The notes beneath the pieces were generated by a model, which searched no databases, had not been told where the DNA came from, and saw only the letters and a program-made list of their open reading frames with translations. A stretch of 64,000 nt of DNA from NCBI GenBank assembly GCA_951406725.2, contig OX597843.1, forward strand, positions 18,972,001 to 19,036,000, read 5' to 3'. Within the stretch, counting starts at the first letter, position 1. Each line of letters begins with the position of its first letter. Of the stretch, positions 28,769 to 64,000 are shown in pieces. The translations under genes and the position numbers were made by a program. The stretch comes from Octopus vulgaris. Taxonomy: Eukaryota.

Positions 28769-28773
<5 letters not shown>

Positions 28774-29125
28774 ATATTGGCAGGGCTGGCCTGCTAGGTA
28801 GCCGGCCAGAATGCTAGAAGAAGATCATCAACGATCAAACTACAAGGGAAATTCTCTGGGGTTAGTTTGCATCACGAGGACCGAATGTACTGAAGAAGTC
28901 ACGGACACTTGAATTATGCAAGTAATTCTTTTGTTAAGACCGAAACCGAGGTATGCATTTAAGTCTGTTATTTATTTAATTTTTCATATGTCCTGCCCGC
29001 CAAAGTTGGTTCTGGTGTTCGCTGAATTCTTCTTCTAGAGAATTTCCCTTGTAGTTTGATCGTTGATGATCTTCTTCTAGCATTCTGGCCGGCTACCTAG
29101 CAGGCCAGCCCTGCCAATATACACA
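28769..29125. mobile_element. Foldback element with 89-bp inverted arms and a hammerhead motif in the spacer (PLE pLTR-like)
   Basis: 28769-28857 is the reverse complement of 29037-29125. Confidence 0.85.
28884..28959 (+). ncRNA. Type I minimal hammerhead ribozyme
   Basis: Stem I aatgta/tgcatt, core CTGAAGA, long stem II (gtc...gac, with internal gaatta/taattc), GAAAC, minimal stem III cgag, GTA cleavage triplet at 28951-28953. Confidence 0.65.
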
Positions 29126-29256: not shown

Positions 29257-29264
<8 letters not shown>

Positions 29265-29662
29265 GTTGTATACTGTCAATCTAACAAGAACGTGACAGTA
29301 GGGGGTACACCACCGCTGTATAGCCCTAGGAAGCATCGAACGCCTCCTGATAGCTTTGACACATTTTTTCCCTGTGTCCTTATATAGATATACGAAGGGG
29401 AGACAAACACCTCCGGCTGCCGGAACTGCATCTAGGGACACCGTGTTTCAGGATCGTTGTCCTTCATCGGCCTAGAGTAGCAGTATATAAGGACACAGGG
29501 AAAAAATGTGTCAAAGCTATCAGGAGGCGTTCGATGCTTCCTTGGGCTATACAGCGGTGGTGTACCCCTACTGTCACTTTCTTGTTAGATTGACAGTATA
29601 CAACCATTCTATCGCCCCACCACCGTACATGTCTCTACGAGAGATTTAGAAATTCAATATTT

Positions 29663-29664
<2 letters not shown>
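29257..29664. mobile_element. Foldback element with 130-bp inverted arms and a hammerhead ribozyme in the loop, inserted in (TA)n
   Basis: Arms at 29257-29386 and 29484-29612. The same sequence occurs unfolded at 60886-61163. Confidence 0.88.
29431..29476 (-). ncRNA. Type I minimal hammerhead ribozyme, U4C core variant
   Basis: Minus strand: tctagg CCGATGA agga caacga tcct GAAAC acggt GTC cctaga. Perfect 6-bp stem I, 4-bp stem II, near-palindromic stem III, GUC site. Confidence 0.75.
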
Positions 29665-51408: not shown

Positions 51409-54400
51409 AAATCACCAAAACAATTAAAACCATCCACTCTCGCCTCAACATTTTTGCTTAATGCCCAAGGCATCAGCCCTTCCACCAATACCCAAAAATG
51501 GAAGATATAATTCCTGGAGGACTGGGTCGATGCCCATCCAAACCACATCCCTTTCTTCGTCCTCACTGAAACCCATCTTAGTAACCTTCACTTGGAAGCC
51601 GAGGTGAAAGTTAAAAATTTCAAAGCCATTCGTGCTGATCGTGCTGGCAGAAGAAAGGGTGGGACTGCCATTTATGTTCATGATTCATTCTCAACAGAAG
51701 CTATGAACATATTTTCCAATGGATACTGCGAAGCAGTCGCTATATTCAGTCAAACCAACAACTTAACAGTAGTTGGGCTCTACAGACCACCCCAAACGCC
51801 CCTACCATGCTTCAAGGAATGCCTCAACAACATAAAGTGTTTCATTCAGCAGTGTCAACCTGACATCTTAATGATGGGGTGACTTCAACCTCCCCGGGGT
51901 TGATTGGTCTACAAACAGTCTGCCGCCAGGTTCTTATGTCTCAACCTCTGACAGGGAGGCAGCGGAATCGCTTCTTGGCTTCATGGATGATTTCTTCCTG
52001 TCCCAACTGGTGCTCGAACCAACGAGATGTCATAAAAACGTCTTAGACTTAATTTTCAGCAATCACACTGATACTATCCACAATATTGCAGTGGAGAAAA
52101 CCCTACTCTCCGACCATGACATGGTTCTCTGTGATCTGAGATTTCACCGGCCAAAATGCAAAACAAATGTCATCCCTCCTGTCCATCCATTTGACACTAT
52201 GGATTTCCACAATGCAAACTGGGAAGCGATCAATAATGATCTTGCACAAGTCGATTGGTCCTTCACGCACACATACACACCCACTAACATCAAAAAGTCC
52301 TGGCAGTCATTTGTAGACACCATTACGAACATATGTGCAAAACACACCCCATTAAGATCTGCAAACACATCTAAGTGTCGAATCCCTAGAAATAGAATAT
52401 CTCTCATCAGGAAAATTAAAAGAATTAACAAACAAATCAACAAGCTGAAATACTGTCAACAGCAACGCACCAACCTGACTGCCATCTCGTCGCTTGAGAT
52501 TAAAAAACATAAACTCCAAAACAACATGATGTCTATCATCAATAGTCAGCGAAGAGCTGAAGAGGCCTGGGCCATTGAGAAGATCAAACTCAATCCCAAA
52601 GTGTTCTTTTCATTTTCAAAAAAACACAGAGTCACTGGTTCTACTGTTGGCCCTCTGATTGATGAAAATGGTACTCTTCAAGACAATGCCAAAACAATCG
52701 GAGAGATATTGCAGAAACAATATTGCTCTGTTTTCAGCAATCCTGATATGACTGATCTGGGCTGTATCAGTGATGTTACCCCCCAATTCACTTTATCGGA
52801 CATAACTTTGGCGCTCCTGATGTCTTAGCAGCAATGAAGGAAATGAAACATAATTCAGCAGTAGGTCCAGTTAGGTTCCCTGCTTGTGTCTTGAAGATGT
52901 GTCAAAACCAACTTGCACACCCTCTAGCCAATCTGTGGCGGAACTCACTGGATACTGGATATATACCAGAAGACCTTCTATTCCAGTCTCTTGTCCCAGT
53001 TTTCAAAAAAGGAAACAAATCGCTTGCCGTGAATTACCGTCCAATCTCACTCACCTCTCATATCATTAAAGTATTTGAGAGAGTGCTGCGATCGCGTATG
53101 ACTCACTTCCTTGAGAGTGAGTCATACTGCATCATTTTGATGACATTTTGAGAGCCTTGGGAGAAGGTTCCAACACTGATGTCATCTACCTTGATTTCAG
53201 CAAGGCCTTTGACAGGGTTGATCATAAGATCCTTCTGAGAAAGCTGTCCAATATTGGTGTCACTGGAAAGCTGCTGCAGTGGATCAAGTGCTTCCTGTCT
53301 AACAGAACCCAACATGTTGTAGTCGAAGGAGTCAAATCTAGCCCAGCCAAAGTCAGCAGTGGTGTCCCAAAAGGCACTGTGTTGGGCCCACTTCTCTTCA
53401 TCATCTACATAAAAGATATTACTGACACCATCGAACACAGTAACATCAGAACCTTCGCTAATGATTCCAAGCTCCAGAAGGTCATCAATGGCGTGGATGA
53501 CCGAATAAGCCTTCAGTCAGACCTACTGACTGTTGTCCAATGGGCGGAAAAGAACATGTTGCTAAACGAAGACAAATTCGAACTGATCCATTTTGGAAGG
53601 GAGGACGCTCTGAAACTCCCATACTCCCTTCCTTCTGGAGAAATTCTCATGGCGTCCAACAACATCAGAGACTTGGGAGTAACAGTGGACAACAACATTA
53701 GCTTGGCTACACATATAAGCAGCAAAGTTGACATGGCCCGCAGAATGTGTTCCTGGATCCTCAGAACTTTCCAGTCGAGAGATTCCCACACTATTATCCT
53801 TCTCTTCTCCACTTTTGCCCGACCTCACCTTGAATACTGCTGTCCACTGTGGTCTCCCTACACAAAACAAAATATTATGAGAATTGAAGCTCCCCAAAGG
53901 TCAATCACAAAAAGGATAGATGGCATGTCAGACCTTGACTACTGGGGTAGACTAGAGAAGCTGAAACTGTATTCACCCCAACGACGCCGTGAACGCTACA
54001 TTATCTGTATGATGTGGAAAATATTCCATCAGCACTGTCCGAATGATGTTGGCATCACCTTCAAAATACATCCAAGGCTTTGACCACGTGCCCTCCGTCC
54101 ACAACAAAAATCCAAATCGCATCACATAACGACAATACGGCACAATTATTTCATCTCAATTGGACGCGCTCTCTTCAGCATTACACCAGGACAGGTCAAA
54201 ACAGAGACTGACCACACTAAATTCAAGAAGTCTTTGGACAACTTCCTTCAAACAGTCTCGGACAAACCACCCACACCCGGATATATCTCCGCAAACAATA
54301 ACTCTCTGCTCCAATGGGCCTCGGTGCCCAAATCCTGAGTTGAAAGACTTCGCCAGGTGGTGCTATTAAGTTAGACATGACCTGGGTCAATACTGGCCAA

Positions 54401-54559: not shown

Positions 54560-61200
<6,641 letters not shown>

Positions 61201-61254
61201 AATTGTATATATGTATATTCAGTGAAGTCTATTCACTGATTATCAAAATAAGAA

Positions 61255-61287
<33 letters not shown>

Positions 61288-61289
61288 CT

Positions 61290-64000
61290 TCACTGAAAAT
61301 TAGATATATATATTTACGAAACCGAGACAAATATCTGCAGCTAGCAAGTCTTTTTGAATTTTTTCCTCGGATTACGGCAAACATTTTTCTGTTGCTACAA
61401 GCCGTTGTGTGAGTTCGATTCTGTTAGTCTCTTTGTTTTGTGTTACACGTGAAAATTTTTTGAACTGTTGTTTTTTGACCCAGTAATTTTCGCCCTTCGG
61501 GGTAGAAAGTTTCTGTGTTTTTTGTGTAAACTTTTAACCTGTATAGGTTATTTTTGAAAAATTCCCTAGTCATTTGTGACAAGTTTCTTGTTTTCTATAA
61601 TGGAAATTGACTTAAATTCAAAAAAGATTTTCCCGAAATGGGAAAAGGCACAAACGTTAACAAACAAATGGTTACACAGGCAAAACCAAGTTTCTCTGAT
61701 TCCGTAGGCGGCAACGTGGTAGAACTGGAAGTAGCAATGGAGAAGCTCTTCCAGTTCAGAAAGTTAATTAAAAAAAAGCGGTGAAGAAATGCGATTAATA
61801 CCGCCCCTGAAACTATGCAGGCAATTCGAGAAAAGACGGTTACTTATAAAGTCTATAATATAGAAGAAAAAAGAATAACCGACGTGAAAAATGATATAGT
61901 GGAAAGGTGTATGGCGCCAATATGGAGTAAGGTTCGCTACGTCAGCCGAGGGGCGAGAAGCGCTACAATAGAAACTCATTTCGAGTCGGCCGATGTAGCG
62001 AAGGAACTTTCAACACAAACTTTGAAAAGCGAGCATATCCTATTACTACCCTTGTATTTGGGGCGTAGGATGGCGAAAGTTTCACTGGATGACATACCAA
62101 GGGGCTACGAAGTGATGTGGGCGGCAACAGCGGTCATATTTGATGTGGAGGAAAAATTAATAATATTGAGCATGAGGAAGAAAAGGCAACGAACTGGAAA
62201 GGCCAACAGTTTGAGATGATTATTCAAGCAGAAAATTCAACTCTGGAAAGCTTGCCAGATAGGGTTTCGTGGGAGAGGGGCATACCATACGTGTATCGGT
62301 AGAGGGACGCAGGCCCAGATGTTTCAAGTGCGGGCAAAAGGGCCATGTTCGCTCCGTATGTACGAAAAAAAAAACGGTCAACGCCCCTCCTCAAAACGCT
62401 GGAAAAAACACAGAGAACAAAGCAGACAACACAGCAACAACAAAAGGAAACGCGGAAAAGAAAAAACAGACTGAGTTTCAAAAAGAGGAGAACAAGAAGA
62501 GGAGAAACAAAACGAAAAAGAAAAGGAAGAGGAAAATAATCTAACAAAAAAAATGAGCAAGAAGAAATGGAATACACGACTGTGAGAAACAAAAGAAAAA
62601 AATCTAACACCCCTAACTCCCCACCCCAAACAAAAAACAAAATCAATGATGCAGACGAACAACATAAAAAAATTTTCCAATCCCATCCCGCTGGTACTAC
62701 TTTTGTAGGACAGCAATTCAATAAACCCCACCCCCCAACTTTAAAAGGGTTTAAATCAAATGATAAGTGTATAGCTTATAATACGAGAAATGAGAGAGTT
62801 GTGAGGTTCGTGAAAAGAAGAACTCAAATCAAATGCTTTAAAACGACAGAGAAGGACCCGGAATGGAGATAGGCAAGAGTCGGCGAGGAAGAATTCACGG
62901 AGAGACTCTTCCAACAACATGGAAAGGACGGTTTCATTAAGGATGTCACCCAGGAGGTGATAGTTGGGAGAGTGCATATCGGCCCGGCAGCCACACCAAC
63001 CCAGAGCCCGGTGGCAACGCCGGTGAAATGCCCAGCAACAACGGAGAGTGTGGGGGAGGCAGGCAGACATAACCTGTCATGCTCCCTCCCGCAACCGTAA
63101 GTAAGTTATTTTTCTTTCTTCGATGATTAAGTTAGGCTGTATAAATGTGGGTGGAATGGGGTCGAAATGGAAACAGGATTTGTTTGCTGGACGACCTCAT
63201 TTCACATAGAATCGATGTGGCTATTGTTACCGAGTCCAAGATGAAAAGACCCCAAGCGTTCTCGCCACATCTCAATGGTTACGAGAAATTTATTTCTCCT
63301 AGCCGAGGGGGAGGTGCAGGCGTGGCAATCCTTATCAGGAAGAACTTGCACTTACAAGTAAGTCCTGTCTTTCTAGACCCAGAAGGTAGGCTGGTTGTCC
63401 TAGATGTGACTCGCATGAGTAAGCAGTCCTTCAGGTTGGTTAGCTGTCTATGTTCCTTATGGGTATTGGCAGACCGGTTTTTATCGGGACCTGGAGCACT
63501 TTCTCGTGACGTCTAAAACGGTAGTCTTGGTAGGGGATTTCAACACTATTCTCGATGCGCGGGTTGATAGTGTAGGCTCGAACGTTAGGAGAGGGAATCC
63601 TTGCCTCAAGGCTCTACTAGCGAGCTTTAATCTAGTAGACTGTTTTCGACTGGATGAGCCGAACGTTCCACAGTGGACGTGGAGTAACAACGACGGCTCA
63701 CGCAGATCGTATATAGATAGAGTATTTGTTAAGGAACGAGATAGGAATAGCGTTAGCTGTCCACAATTTTCTGTTGTGCCTTACACGGATCACAAACTCG
63801 TGACGTGTGAGGTACATGTAGATAAATGCCATAGACAAGGTCCCGGGTACTGGAAGATGAACAAGTCTATTTTGACTTGTGAAGCTTTCCGTACCCGGAT
63901 TAAGGAATTAGTACAGAAGGCATTATGTGGCACCATCATTAATAATAGATGGTGGCTCGCCCTCAAAAGAGCCATCCGTTTGGAGTCCATTAGATTTAGC
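61290..64000 (+). mobile_element. Tx1/L1-clade LINE 5' part: ORF1 with CCHC knuckle and ORF2 endonuclease, frameshifted, running off the window
   Basis: CFKCGQKGHVRSVC in ORF1. From about 63123: KLGCINV...VTESK...GAGVAIL...DPEGRLVVLDV...GDFN...YIDRVFV...TDHKLV...GPGYWKMN. Confidence 0.9.

What the first reader, a model, noticed from the sequence alone, without database searches (positions are those of the whole stretch)
29257..29664. Non-coding, ribozyme-carrying foldback element inserted in (TA)n, with a second copy 31 kb away
130-bp inverted arms flank a 97-bp loop holding a cleanly paired type I hammerhead with a U4C core (CCGAUGA). The ribozyme is identical in the solo copy at 61112-61157, while nearby bases differ (ctccggctg versus ccccagccg). 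Both 3' ends face outward into (TA)n and the right arm is longer than the left. This is the same architecture as the full PLE at 54694-59523, but with no ORF. Inference: a minimal non-autonomous PLE-dependent or retrozyme-like element family; best candidate here for an undescribed system.
Basis: partly seen in the sequence, partly recalled or inferred. Interest (0 to 1): 0.72.

Follow-up and report, generated by a model that had tools for sequence, protein, structure and literature searches.

The report
Retrozyme copy with Penelope-style insertion
This hairpin is one truncated, two-armed insertion of a 364-base protein-less jumping repeat with many young copies in the genome; each unit carries a predicted self-cutting RNA with an unusual core letter, and the shape of the insertions suggests that a Penelope-type enzyme likely copies one small RNA from two fixed start points.

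Summary
It is one insertion of a 364-nt head-to-tail unit (2062 first-look candidates). A direct arm (unit 183-364) is joined 5'-to-5' to an inverted arm (87-312). The 'solo' copy is one full unit plus 8 nt. In 29 of 36 folded insertions the outer ends sit at unit 304-313 and 364, a 52-nt Penelope-type tail, while inner junctions vary. Arms reach about 3.3 units, carry no long ORF, and share one haplotype per insertion (88-92% concordance versus 12% between loci). The type I hammerhead covaries at 14 of 16 pairs across five subfamilies; the U4C core is in 86 of 91 segments. One hybrid joins the unit to a coding PLE end at both predicted cut sites. No coding PLE with this repeat was found; RNA, circles and cleavage are untested. 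This is a non-LTR retrozyme, a known class, here with a variant core and a PLE insertion footprint. This scan had already reported similar retrozymes, and the LINE that targets them, elsewhere in this genome.

The parts
29257..29483 (-). Inverted arm: unit positions 87-312, ending at the inner fixed end (312) against (TA)n; contains the hammerhead
29483..29664 (+). Direct arm: unit positions 183-364, ending at the outer fixed end (364) against (TA)n; 1-nt overlap with the other arm at the junction
29613..29664 (+). 52-nt tail between the two inferred reverse-transcription start sites (unit 313-364)
   Evidence: tail model from PMC11167929
29427..29482 (-). Type I hammerhead: core CCGAUGA (U4C) at 29470-29464, stem II AGGA/UCCU, GAAAC, predicted cut after GUC at 29437, bulged stem I
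60887..61258 (-). Second copy: one full 364-nt unit (61250-60887) plus an 8-nt terminal repeat (61251-61258); single-armed
61066..61212 (-). Long extended stem I rod capped by the hammerhead (core 61151-61145, predicted cut after 61118); fold z = -6.2
61283..61351 (+). Fragment (19-86) of sister subfamily B, the 5' flank of the LINE
61352..64000 (+). APE/RT/zinc-knuckle LINE inserted in a subfamily-B retrozyme; it ends about 2.9 kb beyond the window and is followed by B 73-297
54692..59523 (-). Coding PLE (RT + GIY-YIG) with the same two-arm, one-tail (54 nt) layout; not sequence-related; comparison only

Best explanation
The hairpin is one 5'-truncated, two-armed insertion of a 364-nt head-to-tail non-coding repeat with a predicted type I hammerhead in each unit (a non-LTR retrozyme), likely pasted in by a Penelope-like element's enzyme acting in trans. 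Shown by sequence: unit length, tandem arrays, two fixed outer ends 52 nt apart, variable inner junctions, TA/AT-rich targets, 8-12-bp target duplications, one haplotype per insertion, covariation of the ribozyme fold. Inferred: arrays are transcribed and cut at GUC (position 133); monomers are closed into circles, probably by an RtcB-type ligase as shown in vitro for mussel and axolotl retrozymes; a PLE GIY-YIG/RT protein nicks both strands of TA-rich DNA and starts cDNA at unit 364 from one nick and at 312 from the other; each cDNA runs a variable distance, often through the cut site and past one unit, and the two are joined 5'-to-5'. When both stop short of one unit, the result is this foldback. 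I put the class at about 0.9, PLE mobilisation at about 0.8, a circular template at about 0.6 and in vivo cleavage of the U4C core at about 0.7.
For: Head-to-tail 364-nt units and 2062 candidates. 36 of 52 distinct loci folded, 29 of those 36 with outer ends at 304-313 and 364. In the sample less biased by length, 18 of 26 distinct insertions were folded and 7 of 26 had both arms shorter than one unit like this one. Target duplications of 8-12 bp in 4 of 6 loci checked. Diagnostic non-CpG variants agree within a locus in 120 of 136 same-strand and 131 of 142 opposite-strand comparisons against 12% between loci; 15 variants private to one locus are shared by two or more of its segments (61 loci). 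Longest arm about 3.3 units among 40 scored of 2278 candidates, so no long master array was seen. 5' ends do not pile up at the cut site: 23 of 30 loci examined (of 73 matches) start anywhere from 132 to 157. Hammerhead covariation: 14 of 16 pairs changed on both sides, 95% of cells paired, versus at most 55% paired and 3 such pairs when slid. Circular fold z = -8.5. Hybrid L180 joins unit position 133 to a coding PLE's repeat at that repeat's predicted cut site. Two PLE start sites giving a tail: PMC11167929.
Against: No coding PLE sharing this repeat or its ends was found, so the helper is unidentified. No raw RNA reads were available, so transcription, cleavage and circles are untested. U4C considerably lowers activity in vitro in a viroid hammerhead (PMC3088659 passage), pair 10.1-11.1 is A-U here, and the predicted lowest-energy fold mispairs the core. 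The antisense strand also folds well (z = -6.0), so the fold score does not fix the strand. In the anole PLE, uncleaved RNA was the main template and ribozyme mutants still inserted. Eight of nine Xenopus retrozyme dimers did not cleave in vitro. One haplotype per insertion also fits homogeneous linear multimers or later gene conversion. The cut-site hybrid is a single event, and the relatedness of the 19 aligned hammerheads inflates the shuffle control.
Confidence: 0.8

Rival explanations
1. Same non-autonomous PLE-dependent repeat, but the template is an uncleaved linear multimer and the U4C hammerhead is slow or idle.
For: Uncleaved RNA was the dominant template for the anole PLE. No pile-up of 5' ends at the cut site. 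The core is mispaired in the predicted fold. Homogeneous short arrays would also give one haplotype per insertion.
Against: With linear templates and 5' truncation, arms can only shrink, yet 2-3-unit arms recur in several haplotypes and no array above about 3.3 units was seen. The fold covaries across subfamilies. The hybrid lies at both predicted cut sites.
Confidence: 0.3
2. The copies are truncated ends of an ORF-bearing PLE whose body was not found or has been lost.
For: The layout is that of a PLE. Xenopus retrozymes are related to PLE pLTRs. Only the best candidates are scored in own-genome searches.
Against: Upstream of one unit lies the next unit, not an ORF. The longest ATG frame in a 2.8-unit array is 70 codons. 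No shared continuation after the tail in 29 + 97 atypical ends; one pair was near-identical.
Confidence: 0.07
3. The APE/RT LINE that sits inside these repeats is the helper that moves them.
For: 15 of the 30 best LINE 3' ends run straight into subfamily B, several LINE-plus-retrozyme composites end at the two retrozyme ends, and LINE sequence precedes one family-A copy (L219).
Against: The LINE also inserts on its own, ending just after its own AATAAA-type signal, and has a 16-nt duplication in L156 and 17-19-nt duplications inside retrozymes. The TA targets, inverted arm and tail match the coding PLEs here.
Confidence: 0.06
4. A discrete foldback or MITE-like DNA element with fixed 130-bp inverted arms.
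For: Perfect-looking hairpin at this one locus.
Against: Arm lengths and inner junctions differ among the 36 folded loci, 16 of 52 loci have one arm, and the two ends are different positions of the unit.
Confidence: 0.01

Closest known systems
Metazoan non-LTR retrozymes (Cervera and de la Pena 2020, PMC7229834; parts 2-4 of 6 read; supplement not readable). Mussel family 350-390 bp; axolotl HHR_Amex2 with a U-U at the base of stem II
   Same: Short tandem non-coding unit (364 nt, 44.5% GC), type I hammerhead in each unit, highly self-paired predicted circle, target duplications over 4 bp, PLEs proposed as helper.
   Different: U4C core nearly fixed; arrays short (about 3 units at most) and dispersed; two-armed insertions with two fixed ends, which the parts read do not describe; RNA not shown here.
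Li, Clavereau and Pollet 2026, bioRxiv 10.64898/2026.07.22.740005 (parts 1-3 of 5 read, abstract to discussion)
   Same: Animal retrozymes as non-autonomous PLE derivatives, found as monomers, dimers and multimers.
   Different: Their link is co-occurrence and pLTR homology, mainly in vertebrates; here it is the insertion footprint, and no homologous coding PLE was found.
EN+ Penelope-like elements (PMC8557442, passages; PMC11167929, parts 1-2 of 4 read; PMC4209133, part 1 of 4 and passages)
   Same: Partial tandems, inverted 5'-truncated copy, tail on one end, AT/microsatellite targets, two internal RT start sites, hammerhead in the repeat; non-autonomous head-to-tail forms are noted for Chlamys (MRC1).
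   Different: No ORF; tail 52 nt rather than 30-40; full three-stem hammerhead rather than a minimal one.
Natural U4C hammerhead of a viroid (PMC3088659, passages only)
   Same: Same core substitution, reported to lower activity in vitro but to suffice in vivo.
   Different: There a variant; here the majority state of two high-copy genomic subfamilies, and also seen in subfamily D.

Membership tests
Non-LTR retrozyme | Short (150-450 bp) head-to-tail repeat unit | tested here: met
   364-nt units in tandem, up to about 3.3 per arm; 364-to-1 joint also in contigs of 3 of 4 runs
Non-LTR retrozyme | Type I hammerhead in each unit | tested here: met
   Three stems with covariation; departures U4C (86 of 91 segments) and A-U at 10.1-11.1
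Non-LTR retrozyme | No protein coding, GC under 50% | tested here: met
   44.5% GC; longest ATG frame 70 codons in a 2.8-unit array
Non-LTR retrozyme | Target duplications longer than 4 bp | tested here: met
   8-12 bp in 4 of 6 loci checked; one in an AAT repeat, one none
Non-LTR retrozyme | Self-cleavage of the RNA | tested here: inconclusive
   Only indirect: one hybrid at both predicted cut sites; no excess of 5' ends at the cut
Non-LTR retrozyme | Expressed as linear and circular monomers | not testable with these tools
   Only contigs were on offer and no run was on record as RNA
Non-LTR retrozyme | No PBS or polypurine tract | not tested
   No tRNA-primer search was run
EN+ Penelope-like element (autonomous) | ORF with RT and GIY-YIG | tested here: not met
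   No ORF in the unit, none attached in the loci read
PLE-type insertion | Partial tandem plus inverted 5'-truncated copy | tested here: met
   36 of 52 loci folded
PLE-type insertion | Tail on one end from two fixed start sites | tested here: met
   Ends at 304-313 and 364 in 29 of 36 folded loci
PLE-type insertion | Repeat shared with an identifiable coding PLE | tested here: inconclusive
   None found; no exhaustive PLE survey was possible
MITE / foldback DNA transposon | Fixed terminal inverted repeats and constant structure | tested here: not met
   Variable arms and unequal ends

The most novel reading that the evidence does not exclude
A family of small circular RNAs with a deliberately damped (U4C, self-mispairing) hammerhead is written into DNA by a PLE enzyme rolling round one circle from both nicked strands. 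Cut RNA ends of different ribozyme elements are sometimes joined in cells and fixed in the genome. LINEs that insert just upstream of the ribozyme are then carried along as PLE-type cargo, making a three-layer parasite system.
Probability: 0.35. Interest if true: 0.68.

Novelty: new variant of a known kind. Interest (0 to 1): 0.44.

Why it matters
How animal retrozymes get back into DNA has been proposed rather than shown: PMC7229834 names PLEs as a strong candidate, and the 2026 preprint says the mechanism remains open. This young family gives a concrete footprint (two start sites, two arms, one haplotype, read-through of the cut site) and exact coordinates for a bench test. A near-fixed U4C core at a CpG site, in a high-copy mobile element, also tests whether slow cleavage is favoured in these circles. 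The class itself is known, so the gain is mechanistic.

Tried and rejected
Rfam at gathering score: no match. The repeat finder was swamped by microsatellites. L092 looked like a PLE ending in retrozyme sequence, but the fragment lies beyond a (TA)n run after the PLE end, so it is a neighbour. The search for a coding continuation after the tail found none; the first pattern largely missed family A and was redone. Three insertions start at the cut site (L172-L174), but the positional control showed no excess (30 of 73 matches scored by script, 7 of the 30 were longer copies and set aside). L182 is a microhomology deletion, not a cut-site hybrid. RNA: no RNA holder listed; four runs guessed to be RNA hold contigs of the unit, which shows neither expression nor ends. 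A 369-nt contig that closes on itself in run X20 fits a DNA tandem just as well. One unit (L051) entered the alignment in the wrong orientation and was ignored. Literature searches for a cephalopod description and for a described two-armed retrozyme footprint found none in the held library; the supplement of PMC7229834, which shows more invertebrate retrozymes, could not be read, and Repbase was not available. Look-ups of earlier findings near this place and by sequence were empty.

Full report
Observation. The hairpin is real. Arms 29257-29386 and 29484-29612 differ at 3 of 130 columns, the loop is 97 bp, the right arm has 52 extra nt, and both ends meet (TA)n. The minus strand holds CCGAUGA, a 4-bp stem II, GAAAC and a predicted cut after 29437. 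The second copy is longer than reported: 61250-60887 on the minus strand, with its last 8 nt repeated at its start.

What the unit is. That 364-nt stretch has 2062 first-look candidates in G000 (2.8 Gb; 40 scored), with many 96-99% full-length hits lying head to tail. I number the unit from window 61250. The finding is then an inverted arm 87-312 joined to a direct arm 183-364. Of 52 distinct loci, 36 are folded and 16 single-armed; 29 of the 36 end at 304-313 on one side and 364 on the other, while the inner junctions vary. That set is biased toward long copies. In the sample from a 64-nt query, 18 of 26 distinct insertions were folded and 7 of 26 had both arms under one unit, as here. Where the target is not a TA run, duplications of 8-12 bp are visible in 4 of 6 loci checked. 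The unit is 44.5% GC with no long ORF. Contigs of four runs under four other organism labels cover the unit, and no change at the U4C position reached the 8% listing level.

The ribozyme. Relatives were found at about 80% (B, 355 nt) and about 72% (C, 354 nt) identity, plus more distant D and E; one pattern shared by B and C has 756 exact hits. Over 19 hammerheads, 14 of 16 pairs show changes on both sides and 95% of cells pair; slid controls give at most 55% and 3 pairs. Relatedness inflates the shuffle control, but the slide control keeps it. The bulge U residues and two loop-II A residues are invariant; from memory these are the loop I-loop II contact positions. Family A has CCGAUGA in 86 of 91 segments and CUGAUGA in 2. 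B is mostly C4, C mostly U4, D mixed. A natural U4C variant is known from a viroid, weak in vitro but sufficient in vivo (PMC3088659, passage). Against activity: pair 10.1-11.1 is A-U, and the predicted fold prefers core CCG paired with loop-III CGG by 5.4 kcal/mol.

Indirect sign of cutting. Of 7 matches ending at position 133 with a non-C next base, 4 were point variants, 1 a microhomology deletion and 2 were the two arms of one insertion, L180. There the unit is joined to the end of a PLE repeat with 1433 hits, which flanks an RT plus GIY-YIG ORF in L208. The join falls exactly where that repeat's own minimal hammerhead (U3-A8 type, described in PMC4209133) is predicted to cut, with a 5-bp stem I. 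This is one event. Insertions starting at 134 are not in excess, so cDNA usually runs through the cut site.

Template. Across 61 loci, diagnostic non-CpG variants agree in 120 of 136 same-strand and 131 of 142 opposite-strand comparisons inside a locus, against 12% between loci. With rarer variants included the figures are 83% and 75% against 8%. Fifteen variants private to one locus occur in two or more of its segments. The longest arm among 40 scored of 2278 candidates is about 3.3 units. One RNA sequence therefore seems to template all units and both arms. A circle explains this most simply, since linear templates could only shorten arrays; homogeneous linear multimers or gene conversion are not excluded.

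Helper. The inverted arm, one-sided tail and TA targets are PLE hallmarks (PMC8557442, passages), and the tail equals the distance between two internal RT start sites in a purified PLE (PMC11167929). The coding PLE in this window has a 54-nt tail and the L208 family about 41 nt. None of three coding PLEs compared shares more than short, mostly TA-rich words with the unit, and no common continuation follows the tail. The helper is unidentified.

Side finding. An APE/RT/zinc-knuckle LINE starts at window 61352 inside a subfamily-B unit. Fifteen of its 30 best 3' ends run into B at about position 68 (two pairs are not independent), and 3 more end about 31 nt before a different hammerhead. Full copies carry 17-19-nt duplications of the target in B (L093, L097, L140, L141) and in D (L148-L151). 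L091 and L137 hold LINE plus retrozyme on both inverted arms, ending at the two retrozyme ends, which suggests PLE-type carriage of the composite. Earlier notes of this scan report the same targeting and propose promoter capture; I did not test that.

Comparison and verdict. The family meets the sequence criteria of non-LTR retrozymes (PMC7229834, parts 2-4 of 6 read) and fits their proposed PLE origin (10.64898/2026.07.22.740005, parts 1-3 of 5). Expression, circles and cleavage could not be tested. I found no description of a cephalopod family or of this footprint in searches, with the caveat that one key supplement was unreadable. The scan has reported similar retrozymes in this genome several times. 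Verdict: a new variant of a known kind; interest 0.44.

Noticed in passing
window 61283-64000 and L097: LINE inserted at a fixed site about 35 nt upstream of the hammerhead core of subfamily B, with a target duplication; sister LINEs do the same in subfamily D, and LINE-type 3' sequence precedes one family-A copy (L219).
   Followed up: partly
L091, L137: LINE-plus-retrozyme composites with inverted arms ending at the two retrozyme ends, suggesting that whole LINEs are moved as PLE-type cargo.
   Followed up: partly
L094 2986-4662, L102: Short ORF1-only LINE derivatives inserted at the same retrozyme site.
   Followed up: no
L180 1500-1720: Two-armed hybrid joining the family-A unit to a coding PLE repeat at both predicted ribozyme cut sites.
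   Followed up: yes
L234/L245: Two-unit hybrid tandem of about 505 nt: family A from about 132-134 to 283, alternating with about 350 nt of another hammerhead-like repeat.
   Followed up: partly
window 28770-29125: A second, unrelated small foldback (arms of about 85 bp, hammerhead-like CUGAAGA motif in the loop) 130 bp left of the finding; related sequence in L190.
   Followed up: no
window 54694-59523: The coding PLE has one in-frame stop at about 56327, a long Asn-rich insert, and a hammerhead-like CUGAUGCG motif in its repeat; it sits between inverted CR1-like LINE pieces (53203-53964, 59700-60461).
   Followed up: no
L092 3076-7235: Another PLE family with an RT-linker-GIY-YIG-like ORF, no Pfam hit and a much longer tail.
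   Followed up: no
L183-L208: High-copy PLE family (1433 pattern hits) with a U3-A8 minimal hammerhead and a tail of about 41 nt.
   Followed up: partly
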